Origin: a phage
Sequence record: PZ445428.1
Length of the DNA stretch: 64,000 bases
Direction: 5' to 3' (one strand)
Shown here: piece by piece, positions 1-29,820 of the stretch
How the letters are laid out: each line of letters begins with the position of its first letter
Numbering within the stretch: position 1 is the stretch's first letter
Notes under the pieces: model-generated
What the model was told of the DNA's origin: nothing
The model's input: the letters and a program-made list of their open reading frames with translations, nothing else
Database searches by the model: none
Program-made: the position numbers and the translations under genes

Positions 1-394
1 GGATATACTCTTTTCGATCTGGCAATTCCTTAATACGAACTTCTGGTAAATAACCATGAACGTGTAGAACTTCACTTTTTGGCACACCAGCCCTTTCCAG
101 TAGATCATCCACGTTAGTAGTGATGTTCAGTACAGTCTCTGGATATCGTTGGAACCACTCCCCAATGCGGAGATGCGCAATGTTAGGTTCAACAGTCTGC
201 AATTCCTGACGACGCTTGTTGTAGAACTCGTGGGTTTTCCAGTAGAACTGTCCACGGAAAGCATGAATATCACATACTTCTTCCAGATCGTATTCATCCC
301 ACATTGCCTTGCCACTAGCAGTATCTGTACGGAATGCACGGATACCACTATCAACACTTAAACCTGCACCACTAACAATAATTAGTCTACGCAT
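1..394 (-). CDS. Sir2-family NAD-dependent deacetylase-like protein (N-terminal part; gene runs off window start)
   Basis: Hand translation of minus strand from ATG at 394: MRRLIIVSGAGLSVDSGIRAFR...TTNVDDLLERAG, matching Sir2 GAG.S..SGI..FR and QN.D.L motifs; not in ORF track because truncated. Confidence 0.55.
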   Translation of the reverse strand, partial: MRRLIIVSGAGLSVDSGIRAFRTDTASGKAMWDEYDLEEVCDIHAFRGQFYWKTHEFYNKRRQELQTVEPNIAHLRIGEWFQRYPETVLNITTNVDDLLERAGVPKSEVLHVHGYLPEVRIKELPDRKEYI

Positions 395-16835: not shown

Positions 16836-17963
16836 AGTTACATAAATTAGAGAGAACAGCGAGCCGATTACGCTGAGTGCAGAATCCCAACCGGAGCGCA
16901 TTGAATAGAGTCGGTGAGTTGTACTAGGATTCCTGATTAGAGAGGTTCCAGGCACCGCAGGGTTTACTCTGTACCGCTTCCAGCTATCGATATCAGGAAT
17001 GAATAGTGCGCAAAACTCGGGAGCTGTCCCGAAACCTCGTAAACTCTTCTCTCTAATTTAATTAAACGATGGATCTCAGCACGAGCCAGTCACAGTGTGA
17101 AACATGGTGCGTGACCCAGGGGTAGAAGACTAGGAGTTGGCTTGAGAAACCCATGTAACTCCTAACGCTGACCCGTCTAGGTTGCAAATCGAGACATGTG
17201 TATATCACAATGAGGTAAGTGACCATCAAATAGTGGGTAGCGTAATTTTTAGGTGAATGATGGAGGTCTAACGACTGAGGGCATCATCTCGGGATTACCA
17301 GCCACGAAATAGTGGGGTGTCGAACTGACTTATGTAATAACACTGCCGTCCTAGTATAAACGGTAATATCAAGCCGTAACTGGTGGAAGATGTAGGTTCG
17401 AATCCTACGGTCGGTAAGAATTAGATAACTCGGGCTTATACCGGATAAGCATTCGCTGCGGAAGTACATACTATGACGGTTCAGGAGGTACGCCGCCTGA
17501 TCAGTATGAGGTTAGAATCGAAACCGCTAAACCACGAGGAAACCTGACGGCCTCAGCCAAACTCGGAAACTCAGGATCGCTGCTTAGTGCGTGCCCTGTT
17601 TTAACCTAGAGACTAAGCACTCCAGCTTCGCATCGAAAATCGGAGGTGCGATTCTACTAGACCGCGTAACTATGAGAGGGGGAAATGCTCACATGAAACA
17701 TGTGACTAATGGTGCACAATAGAACAGGTAAACGCGATAAGTCCTGTTGAGTAGCAGCAGAAGGCTGGGAGTCATGACCTGAGCCTAACCGAGTTCTCCA
17801 CATAGGGAGGACATAACCACGAAGTCACCTTGACTTAAACTGGAAGATATTGTCTGACGGCAGGGCTGAAGAGCTTAATCTGAGGGGGCTGACCCTACCT
17901 ACCGCCGGGTATCTTTAAGAGCTTTTGAGAGAGTTCTTAAAAATACCTAACAAAATCTATTTT
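16836..17963 (+). ncRNA. candidate large structured non-coding RNA / tRNA-like precursor region
   Basis: 1.1 kb with stops in all plus frames, higher GC than surroundings, promoter upstream, tRNA-like T-arm (GTAGG-TTCGAAT-CCTAC near 17392-17408), canonical tRNA-Arg directly at 3' end. Confidence 0.3.
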
Positions 17964-18276: not shown

Positions 18277-19221
18277 ATGTTTACTAAAAACACTAAAGAA
18301 CTAACTTCTGAACAAAAAGTAATTCGTACTATTAAACGTTGGGGTGTTGGTGCTGTAGTTGGTCTTGGTGCTCTTATTCTGGCTCTCAATTCCTATACAG
18401 TTGTTCAGGACGGTACTGTAAAGACTCAGACATTCTTGGGTAAAGTTAACCCGAACCCTGTACTGCCAGGGTTTCACATTGTCAACCCATTCGCTTCTTT
18501 TGATACTTTTAGTACGAAAGATATTTCCATGAAACTGGATAAGCTTCAGGTTCCTAGCCAGGATAAGTTTAAGTCCACTGTTGATATTACTGTTATGTTG
18601 CAGTTCGATGGTGCTAAAGCTCCGATGAACCGTGTTAACGCAGGTACTCAGGATCAGGCGCTGAACAAGTATGTTGAAGAGAAGATGCTGTCTACTATCC
18701 GTGAATTTGGTAAGTCTGTACCGAAAGCACAGGATCTGTTCGACGCTAAGATTCAGGCACAGCTGCAAACTGCAATTCAGCAGGAAGTTGAAGAATATGC
18801 TCGTCCTTATGGTTACACCGTGAAGCAAGTATTCCTTCAGGATATTACACTTCCGCCAGTAATCATGGAACAGGTTCAGAACACAAAAGTTCGTGAAGAA
18901 CAAGTTAACGCCGCTAAAGCTGAACTAGCTCGTGTTGAACAAGAAGCACAGCAGAAAGTTAAGCAAGCTGAAGCAGATCGTTCTGCTCGTGAAAACATGG
19001 CAGTAGCTAACGAACGTGACGCAGATGCTAAACTGTACGCAGCTAAGAAAGAAGCTGAAGCTAACGCCGCACTGCAACGTACCATTACCCCTGAAATGAT
19101 TCGTTGGAAACAGCTGGAAGTTGAAATGCTTCGTGCTGAGAAATATCAGGGTGGTGTACCGCAGACTGTAGTTGGTACTGGTTATGATGGCCAGATGATC
19201 ATGGATATGCGTAACAAGTAA
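18277..19221 (+). CDS. putative SPFH/band-7 (prohibitin-like) membrane protein
   Basis: N-terminal TM helix, central SPFH-like region, long Ala/Glu/Gln coiled-coil tail. Confidence 0.5.
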   Translation: MFTKNTKELTSEQKVIRTIKRWGVGAVVGLGALILALNSYTVVQDGTVKTQTFLGKVNPNPVLPGFHIVNPFASFDTFSTKDISMKLDKLQVPSQDKFKSTVDITVMLQFDGAKAPMNRVNAGTQDQALNKYVEEKMLSTIREFGKSVPKAQDLFDAKIQAQLQTAIQQEVEEYARPYGYTVKQVFLQDITLPPVIMEQVQNTKVREEQVNAAKAELARVEQEAQQKVKQAEADRSARENMAVANERDADAKLYAAKKEAEANAALQRTITPEMIRWKQLEVEMLRAEKYQGGVPQTVVGTGYDGQMIMDMRNK

Positions 19222-19245
19222 TAGACATACGTAACATCTGAAGTA

Positions 19246-19330
19246 AGCCCGCGTTTCCTCCGAGAGCGCGGGCTTTTCTGTATTTAAGGCAAAAGAAAAG
19301 CCCCTTACCTTTCGGCAGGGGCTTTGTTTT
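19246..19330. terminator. bidirectional terminator region between convergent genes
   Basis: Two hairpins (AAGCCCGCG...CGCGGGCTT and GCCCCT...AGGGGC) flanked by T-runs on one side and A-runs on the other. Confidence 0.6.
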
Positions 19331-19539
19331 TGGTTTAGAACCATACTCTCTTGTTACAGCAACCACCCATACGGGAGACCAATCTTGACTGAAAATCTAC
19401 TCTAGGGGGCAGGATAAGAGTAGGCTTAAAGGCAAACGGATTGAACACCGGTATTTGCGTAAACATTGCTGGAGAGCAACAACGTGCTACAGGCATTGGG
19501 CAGCATGATGTAGGCTTTCTACAACACATTTAAACCTCC

Positions 19540-19968
19540 TTAGGAGTTATTCCCATTGTTTTGAGCTTTTGCAATCTGACTCTGGCAGTAGCTGTTAAAC
19601 TTCCCCATGTAAGAGACAAGAAGCTTTCCATCCTCTGTTTTAGCGAATTCTTCGAAAAGGGACAATACGGCCTGTCCCTCAGCAGAAACTTGCTGTTGTT
19701 GAGGTTGTTGAACCTGCTGCTGTTGAGGCATTTGCATCTGCTGCTGAGGCTGCATTTGTTGAGGCATTTGCGGCTGCCCGCTCATTTGCTGCATCATCTG
19801 CATAGGGTTTACACTTCCAGGATTCTGCTGGAATTGCTGTTGCATATTCTGAGCTTCTGCCAAACGCTGTTGCAACTGCTGTAGGTAAGGGTTATCCAGA
19901 CCCGGAACGGGCTGCTGGGAGCCCATTGGTTGATTAAATCCGTTGTTTACAAAACCATATTTACTCAT
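19540..19968 (-). CDS. Gln/Pro/Met-rich low-complexity protein (142 aa)
   Basis: ORF track; GGAGGAG RBS; poly-Q/QQMQ repeats. Confidence 0.5.
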   Translation of the reverse strand: MSKYGFVNNGFNQPMGSQQPVPGLDNPYLQQLQQRLAEAQNMQQQFQQNPGSVNPMQMMQQMSGQPQMPQQMQPQQQMQMPQQQQVQQPQQQQVSAEGQAVLSLFEEFAKTEDGKLLVSYMGKFNSYCQSQIAKAQNNGNNS

Positions 19969-19989
19969 AATGGGCTCCTCCCCTTAATA

Positions 19990-20976
19990 TTAAGCTGGCA
20001 GCTTAGCTTGTAGGCCAGCCAGCGTCTGAGTGATAGCACCTAGGCTAACAGCGATCTGGTTGATTACCTGACCGTTTGCACCACTACCCTGAGCGATTGC
20101 TTCGCGTAGACGACATTCGTTCAGTTCGTCCTGGATACGCGCAGTAGTTACACCAGCGATCGCAGACTGAAGTTCACAGCAGCACTCAGCAATCTGACGT
20201 TCCAGAGAGTTCTGGTTAGCACACATCTGAGCCTGAACAGCGGCGAACTGGTTGTTTGTCTGGATAGACTGAGCAAAAGAGATCTGTGCAGCATCAAACT
20301 TGTCCTGTGCACGAGCGATCTGGTTAGCAGCGAAAGCTTGATCCATCTGACGAGAAAGATCGAACTGACCCTGAATAACGTTACGAGTTTCCTGACAGAT
20401 CTGGTTGGACAGGTTAGCACCAGTACCATACACAGTAGTCAGAATCTGTTGAGTGCTAGAAGCTTGAGCAGCACCTACACCATTAACAGCGTTTAGAACA
20501 GCACCAGTACCTTGATTTGCTTCAGTACGAGTAGTGTTGATTGCAGCTAGAATACTTGCAGTATCCTGGTTGGAAAGGATAGCGTCCACAGCAGTTCCCT
20601 CAGTGGCAACACCAGCACCACGACCTAAACCACCGAAACCACCGAATCCGCCTGTTAATAGAGCACCAATCAGGATAGCTCCGAATAGACCCATACCTTC
20701 ACCACCGAAAGCACCCTGTGCAGCAGCTGGGTAACCACCCATCAGACCTGGGAAGCCGCTAGTGAATACGTTTACTGGTTCTTGCATTTTATGTTTCCTA
20801 TGTTTATGACAGCCCTCATGGTCGTCATCTTCTTCATCGTCATCATCGTGATCACGATGTTTCTTTTCGTAGGCTTTGACCTTCTCCCACTTATGTTTGT
20901 CTGATTCCTCATGACGTCTCAGTTCTGCTGCGACTTCACTTACGGTCTCAGGTTTCTTAGTTACTTCATCTGTCAT
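19990..20976 (-). CDS. hypothetical protein with His/Asp-rich N-terminal segment and Gly-rich hydrophobic core
   Basis: ORF track 19990..20985, start moved to ATG at 20976 after AGGAGG RBS. Confidence 0.55.
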   Translation of the reverse strand: MTDEVTKKPETVSEVAAELRRHEESDKHKWEKVKAYEKKHRDHDDDDEEDDDHEGCHKHRKHKMQEPVNVFTSGFPGLMGGYPAAAQGAFGGEGMGLFGAILIGALLTGGFGGFGGLGRGAGVATEGTAVDAILSNQDTASILAAINTTRTEANQGTGAVLNAVNGVGAAQASSTQQILTTVYGTGANLSNQICQETRNVIQGQFDLSRQMDQAFAANQIARAQDKFDAAQISFAQSIQTNNQFAAVQAQMCANQNSLERQIAECCCELQSAIAGVTTARIQDELNECRLREAIAQGSGANGQVINQIAVSLGAITQTLAGLQAKLPA

Positions 20977-21182
20977 TTTTGACACCTCCTAGTATATAGA
21001 AAATGTGTGTCTCTTTGATCACTCATCCATAACATATACTTTACACTACCCCAGCGAAAATGTCAAGGGGTCTTTAAAAATTGCCCCCGGATTTTTATTG
21101 GGGTAATAATTTTGGGGTCTGCCCACTCACCTGCTACCCTTAAGTGCCCTACTATTTTCCTACAAAAAGTTTAAAAATTCGA

Positions 21183-21211
21183 TTGCTTGAACGCTAAATT
21201 CTCTGTATAAT
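21183..21211 (+). promoter_or_regulatory. early promoter cassette (-35 TTGCTT, -10 TATAAT)
   Basis: Hexamers with 17-bp spacer. Confidence 0.6.
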
Positions 21212-21242
21212 ATATTTATAAATTAATGAGAAGGAAGTAAAT

Positions 21243-21707
21243 ATGAACAAGTTCAAAGGCATTCGAGTTATTCCTTGTCTTATTCCTAAAACCTTCAAAA
21301 GATTCGCTGAATGGCGTGGTGATGAAGAAGAACTTAGTCATTGCTTCCATAAATATAAAGAAATAGAGTGTGAACCACGTTTCAATCGTCCAGGTCTTTA
21401 CATGGATCGTATTAACAAAGAAGCATGGTACGAACTAGAAATGCTTGATGGTACTATTCGAGCTTTCAGCACAGAATATGAGCATCAAGAATGGGTCTGG
21501 AAGTATAAGTACTCTCACGGTGATCGTATTCTGAACAAAGGCGAATATGAAGAAATGCGCCGTATGTTCCAACTATATAACGTGCCTCTAGAGCAGCAGC
21601 CAGATGTATACAGAGCTAGCCGTGAATACTGGCATGATAAAGCAATAGGACGAGATATGGAGTTGTGTTTACTTCGTTCTTCTAAACGAAAAGCTGAGAA
21701 GGAATAA
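21243..21707 (+). CDS. hypothetical protein (154 aa)
   Basis: ORF track. Confidence 0.55.
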   Translation: MNKFKGIRVIPCLIPKTFKRFAEWRGDEEELSHCFHKYKEIECEPRFNRPGLYMDRINKEAWYELEMLDGTIRAFSTEYEHQEWVWKYKYSHGDRILNKGEYEEMRRMFQLYNVPLEQQPDVYRASREYWHDKAIGRDMELCLLRSSKRKAEKE

Positions 21708-21712
21708 AAATA

Positions 21713-22003
21713 ATGAAACACTACGCAGAACGTGAAATTGATGAATTAGACTTTGCTGGCGGGTTTTATTCCACCCATGTTAGTGCTATGACCGCAGAAG
21801 GACTTAATTCTAAGTCGGCTATTGCGGCAGAATTAGCATTTCGTGATTTTACTATTGCTGAAATGCAAGAGCATATTATGCGACTAGAGAATCAGGTGGA
21901 TGAACTCCTGAAGCACAATGAGGAACTAGGTGAAGATCTCCATGAACTCACAGAAGAACGTGATACTCTTTACATGAAGTTAGCCGGTCATGAATCTTTT
22001 TAA
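21713..22003 (+). CDS. hypothetical protein (96 aa)
   Basis: ORF track. Confidence 0.5.
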   Translation: MKHYAEREIDELDFAGGFYSTHVSAMTAEGLNSKSAIAAELAFRDFTIAEMQEHIMRLENQVDELLKHNEELGEDLHELTEERDTLYMKLAGHESF

Positions 22004-22009
22004 ATTTAT

Positions 22010-22038
22010 TTGCTAAATAACTTGAATTTCTATATAAT
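22010..22038 (+). promoter_or_regulatory. early promoter cassette (-35 TTGCTA, -10 TATAAT)
   Basis: Hexamers with 17-bp spacer. Confidence 0.6.
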
Positions 22039-22068
22039 ATACTTATAAATTTGAGAGAGGAAGCAAAT

Positions 22069-23133
22069 ATGATTAAGACTGGTCTAGTAATTGGTAAATT
22101 CGCACCATTAACTCGTGGTCATATCAACCTTATTAATACTGCGGCGACAATGTGTGAGCGCGTTATCGTTGTAGTTAGCCACGACAATCGTTGGCTGGAT
22201 AAGCAAAACTCTAGGGATCAAGAAGTCCTACAGTTGAAGAATCGTTTACGATGGCTTGAGCAGACTTATGCAGATATTGAGCATGTGGAAATCCACGATC
22301 TTATCGAAGATGATATTCCTGAGTACCCTAATGGATGGGAAGCATATACCAAGATACTCCAGGAGTGTTATGGTATGTATCCTGAAATCACTATCTTTTC
22401 TAGTGAAATTGGGTATGATGCGGAGTACAAAAAGTATCTGCCAAACTTCGGCCATTATATTGTAGACTCGGAACGCACTCGTGTACCAATCTCTGCTACT
22501 ATGATTCGTGAGAATCTGATGAAGTATTGGGAGTTCCTGCCTAGCATAGTTCGTAAAGACTATGTTCGCAAGGTAGTTGTTATCGGTACTGAAAGCTCTG
22601 GCAAGACAACTTTAACAAAGTATCTTGCGAAGTTATATAATACTTCATGGGTTGAAGAGTATGGTCGTACATACTGTGAAGTTGACTTAGTAGGCAACGA
22701 AAGCCTACTGACTAGCGACGACTACACGAAGATTGCATTTAGGCACAAAGAGCTAGAGTTTGAAGCAGAATGTACTGCAAATAAGATCATGTTTGTGGAT
22801 ACCAATGCTTTCATTACTGAGTTCTACCATAGACTCTACGAACATCGTAAGAATCCTGTGGTTACGGCTATTGCGAAAGAAGAACATTACGATTTAGTTA
22901 TTGTTCTAGCACCTACTGTGAAGTGGGTAGATGATGGTTTACGTATTAACTCAGATCGTTCTATTACTTCAGAACTATTCGAGCAGATGAAGGAGGAGTT
23001 CCCTAACCAATTCCCAGAGGGACGCACTGTTTATATCGACTCACCGGACTACAAAGTTCGTATGGACGAAGCTGTAAATGCTGTAGACTGGTTAATTCAT
23101 TATGTTGACGCGGGAGCTATCCAATATGACTAA
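22069..23133 (+). CDS. nadR: NadR-like bifunctional NMN adenylyltransferase / ribosylnicotinamide kinase
   Basis: ORF track 22051..23133, start moved to ATG 22069; N-terminal nucleotidyltransferase motif GKFAPLTRGH and C-terminal Walker A GTESSGKTT. Confidence 0.65.
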   Translation: MIKTGLVIGKFAPLTRGHINLINTAATMCERVIVVVSHDNRWLDKQNSRDQEVLQLKNRLRWLEQTYADIEHVEIHDLIEDDIPEYPNGWEAYTKILQECYGMYPEITIFSSEIGYDAEYKKYLPNFGHYIVDSERTRVPISATMIRENLMKYWEFLPSIVRKDYVRKVVVIGTESSGKTTLTKYLAKLYNTSWVEEYGRTYCEVDLVGNESLLTSDDYTKIAFRHKELEFEAECTANKIMFVDTNAFITEFYHRLYEHRKNPVVTAIAKEEHYDLVIVLAPTVKWVDDGLRINSDRSITSELFEQMKEEFPNQFPEGRTVYIDSPDYKVRMDEAVNAVDWLIHYVDAGAIQYD

Positions 23134-23803
23134 TTATCTTGTAAATGACTTTAAAAACTGGAAACCTCTGGAATATCTGTGGCTGTTCATTGCAGTGGCC
23201 TTCATTAGTTTGGCTAACTATAATGGTACAGCACTAGATTGGGCAACAGCAATCACCAACGTTGTTTGTGTTATTCTGGTTGCAAAGGGGCGTGTTTCTA
23301 ACTATGTCTGGGGTTTGGTAGGTGTTCTGACCTACGGAATTACAGCTCTAAATGCTGATCTTTATGGTAACGCAGCGCTAAACCTGTTGTACTACGTCCC
23401 TATGCAGTTCTACGGAATGTACTTGTGGCATAAAAATAAGCCAAGTAATCTGCCGGATGTTCCAACTAAAGTTCTGACAAAAGCTCAAGCTTTGCTGACT
23501 CTAGGGATTTTAGCAGTAGCAACATTAGGTTATGGTAGTTTCCTTGCTACTACGGCTGATCCATTCCCAATGTTAGACGCATTTACCGCGGTTGGCAGTG
23601 TGATTGCTATGTGGCTTATGGTTAAGCAGTATGCTGAACAGTGGCTGATCTGGATTGCCATTAACTTTGGTACTGTGTACATCTGGCTTGTAACTGCCCA
23701 ATCTACGGGTGCATCTTACGCAATCCTGGCAATGTGGCTGGTATTCTTAGGTAACTCTATTATGGGAGCCTATAAAGGCTACTTTGTAAGAGTTAACAAG
23801 TAA
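23126..23803 (+). CDS. putative PnuC-like nicotinamide riboside transporter
   Basis: Multi-TM 226-aa ORF overlapping nadR-like stop (ATGACTAA); PnuC is the usual NadR partner (inference). Confidence 0.45.
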   Translation: MTNYLVNDFKNWKPLEYLWLFIAVAFISLANYNGTALDWATAITNVVCVILVAKGRVSNYVWGLVGVLTYGITALNADLYGNAALNLLYYVPMQFYGMYLWHKNKPSNLPDVPTKVLTKAQALLTLGILAVATLGYGSFLATTADPFPMLDAFTAVGSVIAMWLMVKQYAEQWLIWIAINFGTVYIWLVTAQSTGASYAILAMWLVFLGNSIMGAYKGYFVRVNK

Positions 23804-23813
23804 TTGAATTTAT

Positions 23814-23838
23814 AGCCCTCTACCTGAGGGCTATTATA
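23814..23838 (+). terminator. hairpin terminator
   Basis: AGCCCTC-tacct-GAGGGCT after stop codon; weak U-run. Confidence 0.4.
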
Positions 23839-23851
23839 CAGAAAATTTCAC

Positions 23852-23880
23852 TTGCTAATTGCCGAAATTTTCTGTATAAT
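23852..23880 (+). promoter_or_regulatory. early promoter cassette upstream of tRNA genes (-35 TTGCTA, -10 TATAAT)
   Basis: Hexamers with 17-bp spacer; next feature is a tRNA. Confidence 0.6.
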
Positions 23881-23894
23881 ATATTCATAAATTC

Positions 23895-23988
23895 GGAAGA
23901 TTAACCCTAAAGGTAAGGGAGTTGTTTGCTAAACAACCAGTAGCTGTGGAGACACGGTGTATCAGTTCGAGTCTGGTATCTTCCTCCA
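23895..23988 (+). tRNA. tRNA-Ser (anticodon GCT)
   Basis: Acceptor GGAAGAT/ATCTTCC, anticodon loop TTGCTAA, long variable arm, T-loop TTCGAGT, CCA encoded. Confidence 0.75.
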
Positions 23989-23995
23989 AATTCAT

Positions 23996-24073
23996 GGTTC
24001 CTTAGCTCAATCAGGTTAGAGCATTCCCCTCATAAGGGACAGGTTCTCGGATCATACCCGAGAGGAGCCACCA
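23996..24073 (+). tRNA. tRNA with CAT anticodon (Met/fMet/Ile2 class)
   Basis: Acceptor GGTTCCT/AGGAGCC, anticodon loop CTCATAA, atypical T-loop ATCATAC, CCA encoded. Confidence 0.55.
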
Positions 24074-24090
24074 ATTAACTAGGAGACTTT

Positions 24091-24279
24091 ATGTCTAAAT
24101 TCCAAGAACTAATGAGAGAGTTGGGTGAGCATCGCTGCAAGGATTGTTATGGGTCTGGAGAGCAAAACGATGCAGAGCCTGGAGATACTCGATTCAATAA
24201 GTGGACTTGTCCTACCTGCGAAGGTACAGGTATCAACCCTCTTTACACTATTTCTATCTACGTGGGAATTGCTAAATAA
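24091..24279 (+). CDS. small zinc-ribbon protein (62 aa)
   Basis: ORF track; AGGAG RBS; CKDC...CPTCEGTG Cys pairs. Confidence 0.5.
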   Translation: MSKFQELMRELGEHRCKDCYGSGEQNDAEPGDTRFNKWTCPTCEGTGINPLYTISIYVGIAK

Positions 24280-24617
24280 TGGATATTTTTACTACTCCAG
24301 CAGTCAACCTTTTAGGTGTAGGTCTGTTCCAAGCTACCATCTATCGTACTGATGATTCTACTGATGTGGTAATGTTCATCGTACCTGAATTCTTCCTAGA
24401 AAAGTTCTTTGAAGAGTTTGAGCAGTTCCGTGAAGAACATAATGCTCACTCCGATATGGAAGATCTAGCAGCTATGTTCCCTGCAGTTTACGGCTATATC
24501 TTTGAAAGTAATGGTCTGGATCTTAATAAATCTGAGCTGGTCGAACTTAATTGGGGAATTAGTTTTGAAGTTGGCTCTCCATTCCCCCGATACTTCCAGG
24601 GTTTAGAGATCCGCTAA
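24279..24617 (+). CDS. hypothetical protein (112 aa)
   Basis: ORF track. Confidence 0.5.
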   Translation: MDIFTTPAVNLLGVGLFQATIYRTDDSTDVVMFIVPEFFLEKFFEEFEQFREEHNAHSDMEDLAAMFPAVYGYIFESNGLDLNKSELVELNWGISFEVGSPFPRYFQGLEIR

Positions 24618-24625
24618 GATTACAT

Positions 24626-24702
24626 GGGGGTGTAATCGAATTGGCATAGGTACTGGACTTAAAATTCAGGTTTTGTGGGTTCGAATCCCACCACCCCTAC
24701 CA
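24626..24702 (+). tRNA. tRNA with TAA anticodon (Leu-like D-loop, short variable loop)
   Basis: Acceptor GGGGGTG/CACCCCT, anticodon stem CTGGA/TTCAG loop CTTAAAA, T-arm GTGGG-TTCGAAT-CCCAC, CCA encoded; D-arm imperfect. Confidence 0.5.
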
Positions 24703-24719
24703 AATAAAAGGAAACTGAT

Positions 24720-24887
24720 ATGTATCAGAGACCGTCACCACCAGCTCGAAGATCAAGAGAAACTCTTTTGATGGAGTTGGCGAAAAACTTCAAGGCTAAA
24801 CTTGAAGACGATAATTTTACTACAGATGAAGATATTGACTTCATTTGCAAACTATTAAAAATGAAATTGGAGAAAAAACATGGCTAA
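24720..24887 (+). CDS. hypothetical protein (55 aa)
   Basis: Hand-translated ORF below track cutoff; stop overlaps next ATG. Confidence 0.3.
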   Translation: MYQRPSPPARRSRETLLMELAKNFKAKLEDDNFTTDEDIDFICKLLKMKLEKKHG

Positions 24888-25086
24888 TCCAGAAGTAGTT
24901 ACACAGCGTTTGCTGATTAAAGGTGTAGTAGCTGAAGCAGGTCTTACCGAAGCTGTTGCAGATTTTCAGGCACAGTTCACAGCTATTCTCACCCAAGCTA
25001 AAGAAACTGGTGCGGAGGAGTATGCTGCTGCAACTCTAGCGCTCACGTTAGCTGGACTTGATCTGGCAGAAGAAGCCGGAGTTTAA
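24880..25086 (+). CDS. hypothetical protein (68 aa)
   Basis: ORF track. Confidence 0.45.
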   Translation: MANPEVVTQRLLIKGVVAEAGLTEAVADFQAQFTAILTQAKETGAEEYAAATLALTLAGLDLAEEAGV

Positions 25087-25116
25087 CTCCTCCAAGCAGA
25101 AATTTTAAAAATGTAC

Positions 25117-25146
25117 TTGCTTTTTACTTAAGATTTCTGCTATAAT
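25117..25146 (+). promoter_or_regulatory. early promoter cassette (-35 TTGCTT, -10 TATAAT)
   Basis: Hexamers with 18-bp spacer. Confidence 0.55.
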
Positions 25147-25175
25147 AGTTATATAAATTGATGAGAGGAATCAGA

Positions 25176-25451
25176 ATGTCAAAACGTGTTACAGCAACTG
25201 GTATTGAAAGCTCAGTATGTAAATCCTGGGGTGGTTGGGAAGGTGAGATTGAATGGCTTTATTTCTACAATGTAGAACTTCTGCCTGAAATTAAAGCCCA
25301 CTGTATCGAAGCTGGTATGTCTCCTGATGCTAAAGCAGATATCGAAATTACTATGACTAAACTAGAAGGTCGTGTAATTACTGTTAGTGATGAAGGTGAA
25401 GAGGTCTTCGAACTTCCATTCACCTTGAAAGTCACTCCTTCGTTTGATTAA
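25176..25451 (+). CDS. hypothetical protein
   Basis: ORF track 25158..25451; start moved to ATG 25176 after GAGAGGAA. Confidence 0.5.
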   Translation: MSKRVTATGIESSVCKSWGGWEGEIEWLYFYNVELLPEIKAHCIEAGMSPDAKADIEITMTKLEGRVITVSDEGEEVFELPFTLKVTPSFD

Positions 25452-25460
25452 CTGATACAG

Positions 25461-25499
25461 CACTGAGCAAGTTCTTTAAAATTTGACTTGCTCAGTGCC
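25461..25499 (+). terminator. 13-bp inverted repeat hairpin overlapping the next promoter -35
   Basis: GCACTGAGCAAGT...ACTTGCTCAGTGC, perfect stem. Confidence 0.5.
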
Positions 25500-25516
25500 T
25501 TAAAACTTGATATAAT
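25488..25516 (+). promoter_or_regulatory. early promoter cassette upstream of tRNA cluster (-10 TATAAT)
   Basis: TTGCTC / TATAAT with 17-bp spacer; -35 lies in the 3' arm of the upstream hairpin. Confidence 0.5.
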
Positions 25517-25641
25517 AGTTATCTAATTTGGAAAACATATCTGAATGAGAAGTAACTAAGCGAGTTGCTTTGAGGGGTAAGGTCAGGATAGCCTGAAATA
25601 TTCCACCTTGAGTTTAACCGACTTACTTTTCATTCAAATAT

Positions 25642-25732
25642 GTTGGATTAGTATCGTAGAGGTAGCGAAGCAGACTGTAAATCTGCCGACTCGGAAGGGT
25701 CTCGGGTGGTTCGACTCCATCATCCAACACCA
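25642..25732 (+). tRNA. tRNA-Tyr (anticodon GTA)
   Basis: Acceptor GTTGGAT/ATCCAAC, anticodon loop CTGTAAA, long variable arm, T-loop TTCGACT, CCA. Confidence 0.75.
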
Positions 25733-25740
25733 AATTTAAT

Positions 25741-25815
25741 GCACCTATCGTCTATCGGTTAGGACATCAGGTTTTCAACCTGAGAAGCTCGGTTCGATTC
25801 CGTGTGGGTGTACCA
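25741..25815 (+). tRNA. tRNA-Glu (anticodon TTC)
   Basis: Acceptor GCACCTA/TGGGTGT, anticodon stem TCAGG/CCTGA loop TTTTCAA, T-loop TTCGATT, CCA. Confidence 0.6.
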
Positions 25816-25822
25816 AATTAAT

Positions 25823-25899
25823 GTTCTGCTAGACAAACAGGTAAAGTCCCTACCCTTTCAAGGTAGGGTTTGCGGGTTCGATCCCCGCACAGAACGCCA
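25823..25899 (+). tRNA. tRNA with TTC anticodon (second Glu-type)
   Basis: Acceptor GTTCTGC/ACAGAAC (one mismatch), anticodon stem CTACC/GGTAG loop CTTTCAA, T-arm GCGGG-TTCGATC-CCCGC, CCA. Confidence 0.55.
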
Positions 25900-25907
25900 T
25901 ATTCTGC

Positions 25908-25984
25908 ATTCCTAGAGTGTTACTGGACAGCATGTCGGTCTCCAAAACCGTACGGTCTAGGTTCGAGTCCTAGTAGGTTTGCCA
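25908..25984 (+). tRNA. tRNA-Trp candidate (anticodon CCA)
   Basis: Anticodon loop CTCCAAA, T-arm CTAGG-TTCGAGT-CCTAG, CCA encoded; acceptor stem has two T-T mismatches. Confidence 0.4.
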
Positions 25985-25990
25985 ATATTT

Positions 25991-26065
25991 GCACCTTTAG
26001 CTGAGATGGATTAGCGCTTGCCTGAAGAGCTTGAGAGGTTGGATCGTTACCAACGGGGTGCACCA
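25991..26065 (+). tRNA. tRNA candidate (anticodon GAA, Phe?)
   Basis: Perfect acceptor GCACCTT/GGGGTGC and D-arm; anticodon stem imperfect, loop CTGAAGA; atypical T-loop ATCGTTA; CCA. Confidence 0.45.
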
Positions 26066-26082
26066 ATTTGAAGGAGATGCTG

Positions 26083-26355
26083 ATGCATCCTGAAAACTTC
26101 TTTATATACTGTACTAGTCCTTTGCTTAAACGCCGGATTAATAAAGTATATCACTACAGAGCTAGTCAACAGCCTTATATTTATGATTCTAGTGGAGATC
26201 ACATTCCACTTGAGCAACTAGGGACTGATTATATGGTTTTGAAGCACTTTAATGAGGCAAAGATCTCAAGCGTTCATAACCGACAAAACTCTAAAACGTG
26301 GTGGTATAAGAAGCGTAAGAAAGGCATCAAATTTCTGAAAAATGTAGTTGCTTAA
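26083..26355 (+). CDS. hypothetical basic protein
   Basis: ORF track 26068..26355; start moved to ATG about 6 nt after AAGGAG. Confidence 0.45.
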   Translation: MHPENFFIYCTSPLLKRRINKVYHYRASQQPYIYDSSGDHIPLEQLGTDYMVLKHFNEAKISSVHNRQNSKTWWYKKRKKGIKFLKNVVA

Positions 26356-26376
26356 ATCCTTAAAGTTCTGTATAAT
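26348..26376 (+). promoter_or_regulatory. early promoter cassette (-35 TTGCTT, -10 TATAAT)
   Basis: Hexamers with 17-bp spacer; -35 overlaps upstream stop codon. Confidence 0.55.
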
Positions 26377-26404
26377 TATTACATAAATTGAACTGGAGAA
26401 CTAG

Positions 26405-26593
26405 ATGAAAGCACCTAAACCGAAATTAGTTAAGTTCGACTGCTGTGACACTGAAATCTTATTTACTAAGTTTGGTGAATTTAAGATGTGTGAATGTGGA
26501 ACATGTGGTTACGATCATGGTGATGGATATTATTGCAGAACCCTCGGGCCTTCTGAACTAATCCACTTCTCATGGCCGGAAAGTAAAGAATAA
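26405..26593 (+). CDS. small Cys-rich protein (62 aa)
   Basis: ORF track; CCDT...CECGTCGYDHGDGYYC. Confidence 0.45.
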   Translation: MKAPKPKLVKFDCCDTEILFTKFGEFKMCECGTCGYDHGDGYYCRTLGPSELIHFSWPESKE

Positions 26594-26595
26594 TA

Positions 26596-26671
26596 CGACC
26601 GTTGGCTGAATGGCTTAGGCGGGGGCCTGCAAAACCTCCTTATGTGAGTTCGAATCTCATGCGGTCGTCCA
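26596..26671 (+). tRNA. tRNA-Cys (anticodon GCA)
   Basis: Acceptor CGACCGT/GCGGTCG, anticodon loop CTGCAAA, T-loop TTCGAAT, CCA. Confidence 0.6.
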
Positions 26672-26678
26672 AATTTAT

Positions 26679-26761
26679 GGGTCGTTAGCCAAGCGGTTTG
26701 GCGGTGGACTGTTAATCCATGTCGAAAGACAACGTAGGTTCGAATCCTGCACGGCCCGCCA
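26679..26761 (+). tRNA. tRNA with GTT (Asn) anticodon and 13-nt variable arm
   Basis: Acceptor GGGTCGT/ACGGCCC, D-stem GCCA/TGGC, anticodon stem GTGGA/TCCAT loop CTGTTAA, variable hairpin GTC-GAAA-GAC, T-loop TTCGAAT, CCA. Confidence 0.55.
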
Positions 26762-26789
26762 TTTTTCACTAAAAACTGAGGAAATAGAT

Positions 26790-26975
26790 ATGACAACTCA
26801 TGCAATTGCTCGACTAGAAGCTGATCGCGATAGTATTAAGAACAATATTAAAGTTCGTGATCAAATCATTAAGGTTTTAAAGGCAGAACTGCTTGAAGAA
26901 CTTCAACATCAAGTAGATCGTCGTGAGTCTTTAAAAGAAGTCGAGGAAGCTCTGTCTAAACTCAAAGCTGAATAA
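26790..26975 (+). CDS. hypothetical coiled-coil protein (61 aa)
   Basis: ORF track. Confidence 0.45.
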   Translation: MTTHAIARLEADRDSIKNNIKVRDQIIKVLKAELLEELQHQVDRRESLKEVEEALSKLKAE

Positions 26976-26984
26976 ACAAATTAT

Positions 26985-27061
26985 GCGATCGGGGCTGGCT
27001 TGGTAATGGTACTCCCCTGTCACGGGAGAGAATGTGGGTTCGAATCCCATCGGTCGCGCCA
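26985..27061 (+). tRNA. tRNA-Asp (anticodon GTC)
   Basis: Acceptor GCGATCG/CGGTCGC, anticodon stem CTCCC/GGGAG loop CTGTCAC, T-loop TTCGAAT, CCA. Confidence 0.7.
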
Positions 27062-27067
27062 AATTAT

Positions 27068-27143
27068 ACATCCATAGCTCAATGGTTAGAGCTACCGCCT
27101 CTTAAGCGGAGGGTTCTAGGTTCAAGTCCTAGTGGGTGTACCA
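27068..27143 (+). tRNA. tRNA-Lys (anticodon CTT)
   Basis: Acceptor ACATCCA/TGGGTGT, D-arm GCTC..GAGC, anticodon loop CTCTTAA, T-loop TTCAAGT, CCA. Confidence 0.65.
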
Positions 27144-27149
27144 AATACT

Positions 27150-27237
27150 GGGGTCTTAGCTAATCGGTTAAGCGTCATGGATAGCGGTGAATTCCGGCCT
27201 ATGAAGGGAGTAACACGTAGTCTCCCAGACTCCACCA
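27150..27237 (+). ncRNA. tRNA-like element (88 nt) with canonical acceptor and D-arm but no canonical T-loop
   Basis: GGGGTCT...AGACTCC-A-CCA acceptor pairing; D-arm GCT-AATCGGTTA-AGC; remainder does not fold as standard cloverleaf. Confidence 0.3.
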
Positions 27238-27487
27238 AATTTCAGTGCAGAACACGGAGCTAGCAATTCGGAAGTGCTGACGCGCGATAAGCTGCCTATG
27301 TACTTGCAAAGCGGACGTGTCCTAGACTCGGACTCTTGCACTGAAACCAATTAAACATTCTAGCGTGGTGGAGAGGGGACACCAGCTTGCCGAGGGTAGA
27401 AGCTCGTTCGATTCGAGTGAAAGAATGGTTCTCGTAAATCCGCACAAGTGATAGTAGGTTCAAGTCCTGCCTAGATTGACTTATTAT

Positions 27488-27561
27488 GCGTCCATAGTTA
27501 AAAGGTATAATTTCTGGTTGCCAACCAGATGTTGAGAGTTCGATTCTCTCTGGCCGCACCA
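27488..27561 (+). tRNA. tRNA-Gly (anticodon GCC)
   Basis: Acceptor GCGTCCA/TGGCCGC (one mismatch), anticodon stem TCTGG/CCAGA loop TTGCCAA, T-arm GAGAG-TTCGATT-CTCTC, CCA. Confidence 0.65.
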
Positions 27562-27808
27562 AATTTAGGTTTATGCTTCCTAGAGAACGTACTCCTAAAT
27601 AAACAAGGCGATGAGTTTCCGGCCGGTTCTAGTCGCTGAAAATCCTCCCGACCAGGTAGGTGTAGGTAAACGAAAGTTTACTTATTAAGTAAGTCCGACA
27701 CATCGGCGGGTGTGTTCTAGTATTTAAAGAAGGTCTCGCAAACTTTCTCGCTAGCATGAGTTCATAGCTCGGTGACTTACCTAATAAGTAAATTTATTAA
27801 AAATGTAA

Positions 27809-27837
27809 TTGCTATTTAGCTTAATTCTCTGTATAAT
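27809..27837 (+). promoter_or_regulatory. early promoter cassette (-35 TTGCTA, -10 TATAAT)
   Basis: Hexamers with 17-bp spacer. Confidence 0.6.
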
Positions 27838-27869
27838 ATATTTTATAAAGTGATGAGAAGGAAAGCAAA

Positions 27870-28028
27870 GTGAAATTAAAAATTGCAGATGTACTTATGT
27901 GTACTTGGGTAATTCCAATCATAATTGTTGGTTTTAACGCAGATATACTTTCCACAGCGTGGAAGATTGTAGGGCTAAGTACAGGGTTCACAATGCTAGG
28001 GTTAAGCATGTTGTGGACGAAAAACTAA
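27870..28028 (+). CDS. small hydrophobic protein (52 aa), GTG start
   Basis: Hand-translated ORF after cassette RBS GAAGGAAAG; below track cutoff. Confidence 0.3.
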   Translation: MKLKIADVLMCTWVIPIIIVGFNADILSTAWKIVGLSTGFTMLGLSMLWTKN

Positions 28029-28032
28029 TATT

Positions 28033-28109
28033 CTCCGATTAGCTCAATTGGCTAGAGTACACCGTTTGGGGTGGTGGGGTTGAAGGTTCGAGTCCTTCAT
28101 TGGAGACCA
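28033..28109 (+). tRNA. tRNA-Pro (anticodon TGG)
   Basis: Acceptor CTCCGAT/ATTGGAG, anticodon stem CACCG/TGGTG loop TTTGGGG, T-arm GAAGG-TTCGAGT-CCTTC, CCA. Confidence 0.6.
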
Positions 28110-28124
28110 AATAAGAGGTTAATA

Positions 28125-28277
28125 ATGCGTCATTTAAATAGGCAAAAAACAAAAGCACCTAAAAGGTTTAAGACTTGGTGCGGTTGTGATAGAGAACTCG
28201 TTTCTCTAGGAGAGAAATGTTCTGTTTGTGGTGTACGCTTTGTTAAGTTCAAACAAAGATTTAAATTTGCGAGTTAG
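28125..28277 (+). CDS. small zinc-ribbon protein (50 aa)
   Basis: ORF track 28071..28277 trimmed to ATG after AAGAGG (track 5' part overlaps tRNA-Pro); CGCD...CSVCG. Confidence 0.4.
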   Translation: MRHLNRQKTKAPKRFKTWCGCDRELVSLGEKCSVCGVRFVKFKQRFKFAS

Positions 28278-28345
28278 ATCTCTGGTAGAGATCACTAGTC
28301 TCATAAGCTAGTAAGAGGTCGGTTCGATTCCGACACTCGCATCCA
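28268..28345 (+). tRNA. tRNA with CAT anticodon (Met/fMet/Ile2 class)
   Basis: Acceptor TGCGAGT/ACTCGCA, D-stem GATC/GATC, anticodon stem CTAGT/GCTAG loop CTCATAA, T-loop TTCGATT, CCA. Confidence 0.65.
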
Positions 28346-28356
28346 AAAAGTATTAA

Positions 28357-28434
28357 GGGTTGCTAGCTCAACTGGTTTAGAGCACTGGTCTTTTAAACCA
28401 TAGGTTACAGGTTCGAGTCCTGTGCAACCCACCA
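28357..28434 (+). tRNA. tRNA-Lys (anticodon TTT)
   Basis: Acceptor GGGTTGC/GCAACCC, anticodon loop CTTTTAA, T-arm ACAGG-TTCGAGT-CCTGT, CCA. Confidence 0.7.
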
Positions 28435-28438
28435 AATT

Positions 28439-28512
28439 GCTCGGTTAGTTTAATGGGAGAACCCCGTCTTTACACGGCGGTTGCGATAGTTCGATTCTAT
28501 CACCGAGTACCA
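28439..28512 (+). tRNA. tRNA-Val (anticodon TAC)
   Basis: Acceptor GCTCGGT/ACCGAGT, anticodon stem CCGTC/GGCGG loop TTTACAC, T-arm GATAG-TTCGATT-CTATC, CCA. Confidence 0.65.
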
Positions 28513-28536
28513 CTTAACTAAAATAAGGAATTGCAA

Positions 28537-28896: not shown

Positions 28897-28910
28897 TTTC
28901 TTGTTATAAT
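28882..28910 (+). promoter_or_regulatory. early promoter cassette (-35 TTGCAA, -10 TATAAT) driving ORF-free leader plus tRNAs
   Basis: Hexamers with 17-bp spacer; -35 overlaps upstream stop. Confidence 0.55.
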
Positions 28911-29225: not shown

Positions 29226-29231
29226 AATTTT

Positions 29232-29307: not shown

Positions 29308-29326
29308 AACAAATTAAGGAAATAAT

Positions 29327-29545: not shown

Positions 29546-29552
29546 ACAAAAT

Positions 29553-29633: not shown

Positions 29634-29653
29634 TTTTAAAATAGGATTAATTA

Positions 29654-29818: not shown

Positions 29819-29820
29819 TT

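What the first reader, a model, noticed from the sequence alone, without database searches (positions are those of the whole stretch)
22069..23803. NadR-like NMNAT/NR-kinase plus PnuC-like transporter: phage NAD+ salvage module, with a Sir2-like gene at the window start
The NadR-like protein has both an HxGH-type nucleotidyltransferase N-domain and a P-loop kinase C-domain, and the downstream multi-TM protein overlaps it by 8 nt. Together they would import nicotinamide riboside and convert it to NAD+. A Sir2-family gene (NAD+-consuming) begins at 394 on the minus strand. A phage NAD+ reconstitution route could offset NAD+-depleting host defences or support phage nucleotide metabolism.
Basis: partly seen in the sequence, partly recalled or inferred. 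Interest (0 to 1): 0.55.

Follow-up and report, generated by a model that had tools for sequence, protein, structure and literature searches.

The report
Known phage NAD+ salvage operon (NARP3)
This is an intact copy of the two-gene phage module NARP3 (a nicotinamide riboside importer plus a NadR-like enzyme that turns the riboside into NAD+). The module was characterised biochemically and structurally in a sister T5-like phage in 2026, so the reading is right but not new.

Summary
The window is Escherichia phage TrudiGerster (Bas27), a T5-like Epseptimavirus.

- **NadR-like gene:** 22069-23133 (+) encodes a 354-aa protein with an adenylyltransferase domain and a P-loop riboside kinase domain, and no DNA-binding domain.
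- **PnuC-like gene:** 23126-23803 (+) overlaps it by 8 nt and encodes a 225-aa PnuC-family transporter.
- **Sir2-like gene:** it starts at 394 (-) and runs off the window.

The pair is the orthologue of Bas30_86/Bas30_87 of phage TrudiRoth, named NARP3 (Yan et al., Sci Adv 2026, PMC13464706). Those authors showed NR binding by the transporter, and loss of rescue when its NR-binding residues were mutated. They also showed NR -> NMN -> NAD+ conversion, solved crystal structures (9X6H, 9X6F), and showed rescue of T7 and lambda from Sir2-HerA and DSR1.

The window proteins are 91% and 99% identical to Bas30_86 and Bas30_87. Of the 23 residues the paper names, 22 are conserved. The exception is D115G, a position that is Ala in E. 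coli NadR. The operon had been predicted for BASEL phages in 2024.

The native role in a T5-like phage is still untested. The Sir2-like gene is far more widespread than the module and lies about 21.7 kb away, so a functional link is unsupported. Novelty: already known. Interest: low.

The parts
22010..22038 (+). Promoter-like site (TTGCTA, 17 nt spacer, TATAAT) just upstream of the NadR-like gene
   Evidence: Consensus scan. The number of such sites in the region is no higher than in shuffles (9 found, 8.2 expected), so this alone is weak. The -10 hexamer, the leader and the ribosome-binding site are nearly identical upstream of Bas30_86, although the upstream genes differ.
22053..22063 (+). 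Ribosome-binding site GAGAGAGGAAG, 5 nt before the ATG at 22069
   Evidence: Read directly from the sequence. Nearly identical in Bas30 (one mismatch, GAGAGAGGAAT).
22069..23133 (+). NadR-like bifunctional enzyme, 354 aa (bas27_0092). NMN adenylyltransferase domain about aa 1-166 (nt 22069-22566); ribosylnicotinamide kinase domain about aa 167-354 (nt 22567-23130). No HTH domain.
   Evidence: Pfam and NCBIfam matches; PHROG 3462 at 8.8e-148. 91% identical to Bas30_86. PDB 9X6F/9X6H at 1.3e-218, E. coli NadR 8X7F at 1.6e-55, H. influenzae NadR 1LW7 at 4.7e-54. Of the 20 residues named in PMC13464706, 19 are identical; the exception is D115G. TxGH (aa 15-18), ISATxxR (aa 141-147) and Walker A (aa 173-180) are conserved across 8 phage homologues.
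23126..23803 (+). PnuC-like nicotinamide riboside transporter, 225 aa (bas27_0093). Its start overlaps the NadR-like stop by 8 nt.
   Evidence: Pfam NMN_transporter 9.9e-43; TIGR01528 117.9 bits against a cut-off of 42.45; PHROG 1880 at 2.6e-73. N. mucosa PnuC 4QTN at 4.3e-32. 99% identical to Bas30_87. N45, Q94 and N180, the residues whose mutation abolished NR binding, are all present. Hydrophobic stretches run along the whole protein.
1..394 (-). First 131 codons of a Sir2-like gene (bas27_0052, 258 aa in full). It uses NAD+ but is not part of the module.
   Evidence: Pfam SIR2 at 4.2e-17 for the part in the window and 2.3e-23 for the full protein. Best solved relative is E. coli CobB 1S5P at 5.2e-19. 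The annotated record places it in the minus-strand replication block.
23895..23988 (+). tRNA-Ser(GCU), the first gene of the phage tRNA array. It marks the downstream edge of the module.
   Evidence: ARAGORN and Rfam tRNA. A second TTGCTA-17-TATAAT site lies at 23852-23880, between the PnuC-like gene and this tRNA.

Best explanation
The two genes are the TrudiGerster (Bas27) copy of the phage NAD+ reconstitution pathway NARP3.

1. The PnuC-like membrane protein takes up nicotinamide riboside (NR) from the medium.
2. The NadR-like enzyme phosphorylates NR to NMN with ATP in its C-terminal P-loop kinase domain.
3. Its N-terminal nucleotidyltransferase domain then adenylates NMN to NAD+.

The enzyme has no DNA-binding domain, so it is a pure enzyme and not a repressor. 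Both genes appear to be transcribed from their own sigma-70-type promoter in the early region, at the head of the tRNA array. The 8-nt overlap suggests translational coupling.

The result is a phage-driven, NR-dependent NAD+ supply that keeps the infected cell's NAD+ pool up. Published tests show that such a supply lets phages escape NAD+-depleting defences (Sir2-HerA, DSR1).

**Shown here:** gene structure, family membership, near-identity to the characterised proteins, and conservation of the tested residues.
**Shown in the literature for the orthologue:** NR binding by the transporter, loss of rescue when its NR-binding residues are mutated, both enzyme steps, structures, NAD+ restoration and rescue of reporter phages.
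**Inferred:** that this copy has the same activities, and that it serves counter-defence in its native phage.
For: - **Identity to the characterised pair:** 91% (NadR-like) and 99% (PnuC-like) to Bas30_86/87, with no internal gaps.
- **Solved structures:** the top PDB hit is the Bas30_86 crystal structure 9X6F/9X6H at 1.3e-218. The transporter matches PnuC 4QTN at 4.3e-32.
- **Tested residues:** K10, F11, S37, E80, P84, G89, F110, S112, V139, I141, E230 and D275 of the enzyme and N45, Q94 and N180 of the transporter are all conserved (residues from PMC13464706).
- **Domain architecture:** matches NadR without the HTH domain.
- **Published function of the orthologue (PMC13464706):**
  - NR binds Bas30_87 with Kd about 0.66 uM.
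  - HPLC shows NR -> NMN -> NAD+.
  - Both genes together raise phage sensitivity of Sir2-HerA cells 10^3- to 10^4-fold.
  - Rescue depends on NR in M9 medium, with EC50 of 3.6-5.6 uM.
- **Earlier prediction:** the operon was predicted for BASEL phages in bioRxiv 10.1101/2024.02.11.579819.
- **Accessory distribution:** about 210-220 of about 425-433 T5-like records carry a close copy. NadR and PnuC homologues lie adjacent or within about 2 kb in unrelated phages such as ICP1, KpSz_1, GAP31, Ro1 and K54_rec6 (coordinates).
Against: - No experiment exists on this copy, or on any T5-like phage lacking the module. The authors say the native context was not examined.
- One residue that the paper lists as contacting NMN differs (D115G). 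It was mutated only together with S112, so its own weight is unknown.
- The NMNAT domain carries most of the 33 aligned substitutions (22 in aa 1-166), and the last residues of the protein also differ.
- E. coli already has its own PnuC and NadR, so the benefit of the phage copies in a natural infection is assumed rather than measured.
- The promoter call is only a consensus match.
Confidence: 0.9

Rival explanations
1. The biochemistry is the same, but the purpose differs. In its native T5-like phage the module mainly feeds the phage's own NAD+-consuming enzymes: the split NAD+-dependent DNA ligase and the Sir2-like protein. It would also sustain general metabolism during a large burst. Counter-defence would then be a side benefit.
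For: - The same genome encodes an NAD-dependent DNA ligase in two subunits. Subunit A matches the Pfam adenylation domain at 4.5e-23 and the OB-fold domain at 1.8e-21; subunit B has a BRCT domain.
- It also encodes a Sir2-like protein with the catalytic His and the NAD+-binding motifs intact.
- The native role of NARP3 is untested.
Against: - About half of T5-like phage records lack the module while keeping the shared backbone. Sir2 homologues are much more widespread than NadR or PnuC, so these enzymes work without it.
- An accessory, patchy distribution fits a conflict-related gene better than a core supply function.
- Whether the ligase is retained in the phages that lack the module was not checked here.
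Confidence: 0.25
2. The transporter imports a different vitamin-like compound, as do PnuC relatives specific for thiamine or riboflavin precursors. The NadR-like enzyme would then work on NMN or NR already in the cell.
For: The PnuC family contains members with other substrates (established knowledge of the family, not tested here). The phage protein scores only 66 bits on the enterobacterial PnuC subfamily model, whose cut-off is 335.
Against: - It passes the PnuC equivalog model TIGR01528 (117.9 bits against 42.45).
- It is 99% identical to Bas30_87, which binds NR. Mutating N45, Q94 or N180 abolished NR binding and rescue.
- Rescue by the orthologous pair needed added NR in minimal medium.
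Confidence: 0.03
3. The NadR-like copy in this phage is crippled in its adenylyltransferase site by D115G and the cluster of nearby substitutions. It would act only as an NR kinase and leave NMN adenylation to host enzymes.
For: D115 is listed among the NMN-contacting residues, and the S112A/D115A double mutant lost activity. In the NMNAT domain, 22 of 166 residues differ from Bas30_86, against few in the kinase domain.
Against: - Position 115 is not conserved among active relatives. It is Ala in E. coli NadR (alignment), Ala in Bacillus phage Sophrita, and Glu in ICP1 and 4MG.
- The invariant motifs are all intact: GKF, TxGH, S37, E80, FSSE, ISATxxR.
- The ORF is full length.
Confidence: 0.05

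Closest known systems
NARP3 of Escherichia phage TrudiRoth (Bas30_86/Bas30_87; Yan et al., Sci Adv 2026, PMC13464706; PDB 9X6H, 9X6F)
   Same: Same genus (Epseptimavirus). Same gene order and strand, and the same position at the head of the tRNA array. Proteins 91% and 99% identical. Same domain layout without HTH, conserved leader and ribosome-binding site, and 22 of the 23 named functional residues identical.
   Different: - The genes overlap by 8 nt here. In Bas30 one base separates stop and start. Loss of the Bas30 stop codon adds 3 residues and changes the last 7-8.
- D115G, plus a patch of substitutions at aa 73-78 and 91-104 in the NMNAT domain.
- Six extra genes (bas27_0086-0091) lie between the upstream conserved gene and the module in Bas27.
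Bacterial NadR (E. coli 8X7F, H. influenzae 1LW7, L. lactis 6GYE)
   Same: NMN adenylyltransferase plus ribosylnicotinamide kinase in one chain; alignable over almost the full length (E 1.6e-55, 4.7e-54 and 2.1e-42).
   Different: No N-terminal HTH repressor domain (the match starts at position 65 of the E. coli-type profile). The first motif residue is Thr where E. coli has His. The gene lies directly next to pnuC, whereas the two are unlinked in E. coli (stated in PMC13464706).
PnuC nicotinamide riboside transporter (Neisseria mucosa, 4QTN)
   Same: Same family, alignable over aa 9-215 at E 4.3e-32. Passes the PnuC equivalog model.
   Different: Not the enterobacterial subfamily (66 bits against a cut-off of 335), so it is not a recent capture from the host. 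According to PMC13464706, the phage protein uses three NR-contacting residues where N. mucosa PnuC uses four.
NARP1 (Adps + Namat) and NARP2 (Nampt + NMNAT/Nudix, as in vibriophage KVP40)
   Same: Phage-encoded two-gene routes that rebuild NAD+ and counter NAD+-depleting defences.
   Different: NARP1 recycles ADP-ribose and nicotinamide, and NARP2 starts from nicotinamide and PRPP. Both can reuse the breakdown products of the defence NADases. This module depends on NR imported from outside and includes a transporter.

Membership tests
NARP3 (phage NadR-like + PnuC-like operon) | Encoded in a phage genome | tested here: met
   The window is 100% identical to Escherichia phage TrudiGerster, Demerecviridae, Epseptimavirus.
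NARP3 (phage NadR-like + PnuC-like operon) | NadR-like enzyme with NMNAT and RNK domains but no HTH domain | tested here: met
   CTP_transf_like aa 7-148 and AAA_28 aa 168-314. The NadR profile match starts at position 65 of 411.
NARP3 (phage NadR-like + PnuC-like operon) | PnuC-type transporter gene directly downstream on the same strand | tested here: met
   23126-23803 (+), overlapping the NadR-like stop codon by 8 nt. PnuC models are passed.
NARP3 (phage NadR-like + PnuC-like operon) | Residues shown by mutagenesis to be needed (enzyme: K10, F11, S37, E80, P84, G89, F110, S112, D115, V139, I141, E230, D275; transporter: N45, Q94, N180) | tested here: met
   All are identical except D115G. 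D115 was only tested as a double mutant with S112, and the position is Ala in E. coli NadR.
NARP3 (phage NadR-like + PnuC-like operon) | NR-dependent restoration of NAD+ and rescue of phage from NAD+-depleting defence | not testable with these tools
   Shown for the 91%/99% identical orthologues by plasmid expression (PMC13464706). Never tested for this copy or in a native T5-like phage.
NadR family (bifunctional NMNAT / ribosylnicotinamide kinase) | (H/T)xGH and ISxTxxR nucleotidyltransferase motifs | tested here: met
   T15-R16-G17-H18 and I141-S-A-T-M-I-R147. G17, H18, S142, A143, T144 and R147 are invariant in 8 phage homologues.
NadR family (bifunctional NMNAT / ribosylnicotinamide kinase) | Walker A P-loop in the C-terminal kinase domain | tested here: met
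   G173-T-E-S-S-G-K-T180. G173, E175, S176, G178 and K179 are invariant.
NadR family (bifunctional NMNAT / ribosylnicotinamide kinase) | Score above the curated family cut-off | tested here: met
   NF005988 NadR equivalog: 259.6 bits against 201. The narrower domain model TIGR01526 is not reached (272.7 against 341.15).
NadR family (bifunctional NMNAT / ribosylnicotinamide kinase) | N-terminal HTH domain with repressor function (enterobacterial trifunctional NadR) | tested here: not met
   The protein starts at the NMNAT domain. It therefore belongs with the bifunctional form, as in H. influenzae, not the trifunctional regulator that some records annotate.
PnuC transporter family | Score above the curated cut-off of the PnuC models | tested here: met
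   PF04973: 146.6 bits against 27.3. TIGR01528: 117.9 bits against 42.45.
PnuC transporter family | Polytopic membrane protein alignable to the solved PnuC fold | tested here: met
   Aligns to 4QTN over aa 9-215. Hydrophobic stretches span the protein. No structure was predicted here.
Sir2 family (NAD+-dependent deacylase / ADP-ribosyltransferase) | GAGxS NAD+-binding motif, TxNxD motif and catalytic His | tested here: met
   G9-A-G-L-S13, T92-T-N-V-D96 and H113 are invariant in 4 phage homologues. Pfam SIR2: 83.5 bits against 24.
Sir2 family (NAD+-dependent deacylase / ADP-ribosyltransferase) | Cysteine-based zinc-binding module between the catalytic His and the FGE motif | tested here: not met
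   There are no cysteines in aa 114-155, where E. coli CobB has them (alignment). The same holds for the T5-like and rV5-like homologues. No NCBIfam deacylase model reaches its cut-off.

The most novel reading that the evidence does not exclude
In T5-like phages the module may not be primarily a counter-defence device. It could be one half of a self-contained phage NAD+ economy. The phage brings NAD+ consumers: a split NAD+-dependent DNA ligase, and a zinc-less Sir2-like enzyme whose clade has been proposed to act in RNA repair. Some lineages then add an unregulated, NR-fed NAD+ supply to support them. Loss of the module would then cost fitness even on defence-free hosts when NR is available.
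Probability: 0.15. Interest if true: 0.35.

Novelty: already known. Interest (0 to 1): 0.12.

Why it matters
NAD+ depletion is a common bacterial abortive-infection strategy, and phage routes that rebuild NAD+ decide which phages escape it. This window adds a second, slightly diverged natural copy of NARP3 in a phage that is publicly available in the BASEL collection. That phage could be used for the missing experiment: deleting the module in its native T5-like background. Beyond that, the finding repeats published work and existing GenBank annotation.

Tried and rejected
- **NAD+-responsive RNA element.** I looked for a pnuC motif or NAD+ riboswitch upstream of or inside the module. Rfam at E<=1 over 20900-24300 gave only the two tRNAs and two chance-level hits.
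- **Defence-system relatives.** A PADLOC scan of the NadR-like, PnuC-like, Sir2-like and neighbouring 330-aa proteins gave no match. The Sir2-like protein is therefore not a defence-type SIR2 by that library.
- **Terminator after the PnuC-like gene.** None was convincing. The only hit lies inside the gene, and the count is at the shuffle level.
- **D115G as an inactivating change.** Rejected, because E. coli NadR and a Bacillus phage homologue have Ala at that position and other phage homologues have Glu.
- **Recent capture from the host.** Unlikely. The enzyme is only distantly related to E. coli NadR (aligned at 1.6e-55; identities in well under half the aligned positions, by eye), and the transporter misses the enterobacterial PnuC subfamily cut-off by a wide margin.
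- **Sir2 linkage to the module.** Homologue counts and gene positions argue against it.
Full report
**What is there**

The ORF list shows a 354-aa ORF from the ATG at 22069 to the stop at 23133 (+). A 225-aa ORF follows from the ATG at 23126 to the stop at 23803 (+). The second start lies 8 nt inside the first gene...CAA TAT GAC TAA read in the first frame, ATG ACT AAT read in the second. A purine-rich ribosome-binding site (GAGAGAGGAAG, 22053-22063) precedes the first ATG. On the minus strand an ORF begins at 394 and runs off the window.

**Source**

The window is 100% identical to Escherichia phage TrudiGerster (Bas27, MZ501108.1), a T5-like phage of the genus Epseptimavirus from the BASEL collection. 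Window position 1 is record position 50662. The three genes are annotated there as follows:

| Locus tag | Annotation |
|---|---|
| bas27_0092 | putative nicotinamide-nucleotide adenylyltransferase |
| bas27_0093 | nicotinamide mononucleotide transporter |
| bas27_0052 | Sir2-like protein |

**Family assignment**

- **Protein 1, domains.** It matches Pfam CTP_transf_like (aa 7-148, 3.6e-8) and AAA_28 (aa 168-314, 1.8e-30).
- **Protein 1, NadR model.** It passes the NCBIfam NadR equivalog (259.6 bits, cut-off 201). The match begins at profile position 65 of 411, so the helix-turn-helix repressor domain of enterobacterial NadR is missing.
- **Protein 1, motifs.** The nucleotidyltransferase motifs are T15-R-G-H18 and I141-SATMIR-147, and the P-loop is G173-TESSGKT-180. 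The key positions are invariant across eight phage homologues that range down to 36% identity.
- **Protein 2.** It passes Pfam NMN_transporter (9.9e-43) and the PnuC equivalog TIGR01528 (117.9 bits, cut-off 42.45). It aligns to the solved N. mucosa PnuC 4QTN over aa 9-215.
- **Sir2-like fragment.** It matches Pfam SIR2 at 4.2e-17.

The only corrections are 225 aa rather than 226, and TxGH rather than HxGH.

**It is already described**

[quoted passage not shown] The paper studies Bas30_86/Bas30_87 of Escherichia phage TrudiRoth, another BASEL Epseptimavirus. It reports the following:

- Bas30_87 is a trimeric PnuC-type protein that binds nicotinamide riboside (NR) with Kd about 0.66 uM. N45A, Q94A and N180A abolish binding and function.
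- Bas30_86 converts NR to NMN and NMN to NAD+ with ATP in vitro.
- Crystal structures 9X6H (apo) and 9X6F (with NAD+) were solved.
- Mutations in both catalytic sites abolish NAD+ restoration.
- The two genes together, but neither alone, restore NAD+ and NADH. They rescue T7, lambda and Klebsiella phages from Sir2-HerA and DSR1, in an NR-dependent way with EC50 of 3.6-5.6 uM.

The operon had been pointed out for BASEL phages as a hypothetical third pathway by Osterman et al. (bioRxiv 10.1101/2024.02.11.579819). Phage NadR was also surveyed by Iyer et al. 2022 (PMC9503650).

**How close is this copy?**

I fetched the TrudiRoth locus and compared the proteins.

- **Identity.** The NadR-like proteins are 91% identical (316/349, no gaps). 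The PnuC-like proteins are 99% identical (222/225). A search of PDB sequences returns 9X6F/9X6H as top hit at 1.3e-218.
- **Named residues.** A script checked every residue the paper names. Of 20 in the enzyme, 19 are identical, and all 3 in the transporter are identical. The exception is D115G.
- **D115G.** D115 was only mutated together with S112. The position is Ala in E. coli NadR (alignment), Ala in Bacillus phage Sophrita, and Glu in ICP1 and 4MG. I therefore regard the change as tolerated.
- **Substitution pattern.** Substitutions cluster in the NMNAT domain (aa 73-78, 91-104, 114-115, 126-149) and at the C-terminus.
- **Junction.** In Bas30 one base separates stop and start. Here the Bas30 stop codon is lost, three residues are added, and the genes overlap.
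- **Upstream region.** A promoter-like TTGCTA-17-TATAAT lies at 22010-22038. The -10 hexamer, the leader and the ribosome-binding site are almost identical in Bas30. This holds even though Bas27 carries six extra genes (bas27_0086-0091, window about 19200-22004) between the conserved upstream gene and the module. This supports a self-contained transcription unit, but the promoter scan itself is not above chance.
- **Other signals.** No NAD+ riboswitch or pnuC RNA motif is present. The module sits immediately before the tRNA array.

**Distribution**

| Query (tblastn, 50,697 phage records) | Records matched | Close copies |
|---|---|---|
| NadR-like protein | 793 | 220 at >=60% identity |
| PnuC-like protein | 504 | 209 at >=80% identity |

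The close copies are essentially the T5-like phages of Salmonella, Escherichia and Klebsiella. Backbone segments of the window match 423-433 records. About half of T5-like records therefore carry the module, so it is accessory.

The coordinates show NadR and PnuC homologues adjacent or within about 2 kb in unrelated phages:

- Vibrio phage ICP1: 12571-13575 and 11857-12495.
- Serratia phage KpSz_1.
- Cronobacter phage GAP31.
- Raoultella phage Ro1.
- Klebsiella phage K54_rec6.

The pairing is thus wider than the 124 Enterobacteriaceae-phage hits reported in the paper, as the earlier surveys already suggested.

**The Sir2-like gene**

- **Relatives and motifs.** The full protein (258 aa) is most similar to E. 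coli CobB (1S5P, 5.2e-19). It keeps GAGLS, TTNVD and the catalytic His113.
- **No zinc module.** It has no cysteines in the segment that aligns with CobB's zinc-binding module. Homologues from Tequintavirus (Bas31, EC142) and rV5-like phages also have none. No NCBIfam deacylase model reaches its cut-off, and PADLOC gives no match.
- **Proposed role.** Iyer et al. proposed that most viral sirtuins form a separate clade acting in RNA repair.
- **Link to the module.** Homologues occur in at least 1000 phage records, including many T5-like phages without the NadR-PnuC pair. The gene lies about 21.7 kb from the module, on the other strand, in the replication block. It is plausibly an NAD+ user, but nothing ties it to the module.
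- **Another NAD+ consumer.** The genome also encodes a split NAD+-dependent DNA ligase outside the window.

**Mechanism and remaining doubt**

The best explanation is the published one: NR import by the PnuC-like protein, NR -> NMN in the kinase domain, and NMN -> NAD+ in the adenylyltransferase domain. This gives a phage-controlled NAD+ supply without the repressor function of host NadR.

- **Shown here:** gene structure, family membership and near-identity.
- **Shown elsewhere, for the orthologue:** the activities.
- **Inferred:** that this copy works the same way, and that counter-defence is its purpose in the native phage. The authors could not test the native context.

The main rival differs in purpose, not in chemistry: supply for the phage's own ligase and Sir2-like enzyme. 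The patchy distribution of the module argues against that as the main role.

**Verdict**

The feature is already known and already annotated in GenBank, so interest is low.

Noticed in passing
window 1-394 (-), continued in L002:20283-21056 (-): The Sir2-like protein keeps the NAD+-binding motifs and the catalytic His. It has no cysteines where E. coli CobB has its zinc-binding module. T5-like and rV5-like phage homologues also have none. Its activity (deacylase, ADP-ribosyltransferase, NADase or RNA 2'-phosphotransferase) is unknown.
   Followed up: partly
window about 19200-22004 (bas27_0086 to bas27_0091): Six genes lie between the conserved upstream gene (bas27_0085) and the NadR-like gene. 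They are absent at this spot in phage TrudiRoth (Bas30). Four are on the minus strand, against the local direction of transcription.
   Followed up: partly
window 19990-20985 (-): A 331-aa protein of unknown function (PHROG 8119 at 3e-192; no Pfam or PADLOC hit). It has an acidic, His-rich N-terminus (DHDDDDEEDDDHEGCHKHRKHK), a glycine-rich hydrophobic middle part, and a Gln/Ala/Asn-rich C-terminal half with a CCC motif.
   Followed up: partly
L002:10545-12493 (-), i.e. record 40544-42492, outside the window: The phage encodes an NAD+-dependent DNA ligase split into two subunits: adenylation and OB-fold domains in A, BRCT in B. This is a second phage NAD+ consumer, relevant to why an NAD+ supply might be useful.
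   Followed up: partly
window 17344-17417 (+): ARAGORN calls a tRNA-Ser with anticodon ACT here. The GenBank record has no tRNA at this place; it annotates a small minus-strand CDS (bas27_0082) there. This may be a false call or an unannotated odd tRNA.
   Followed up: no
window 23895-32268 (+): A dense tRNA array (27 genes called by ARAGORN between 23895 and 32268) is interspersed with small ORFs. It starts right after the PnuC-like gene. A TTGCTA-17-TATAAT site at 23852-23880 has the same two hexamers and spacing as the one upstream of the NadR-like gene.
   Followed up: partly
window 63519-64000: With window position 1 at record position 50662, the window runs 482 nt past the end of the 114,179-nt GenBank record. 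The last 4 kb match the region after the left terminal repeat of related phages (receptor-binding protein, dmp, small terminase). The window was probably cut from a circularised or differently permuted sequence.
   Followed up: partly
window 24091-24279 (+): A 62-aa protein with two CxxCxGxG-type zinc-finger motifs (weak DnaJ central domain and Anti-TRAP hits, below the cut-offs). It falls in PHROG 6060, labelled 'anti-termination protein Q-like', and sits just downstream of the module between tRNA genes.
   Followed up: no
window 1195-3069 (-) and about 32640-33010 (+): An anaerobic ribonucleotide reductase (NrdD-like, 624 aa) lies near the window start. A small gene annotated 'putative formate acetyltransferase' (bas27_0140, 122 aa) lies further on and may be a spare glycyl-radical domain. 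The two might be related in function.
   Followed up: no
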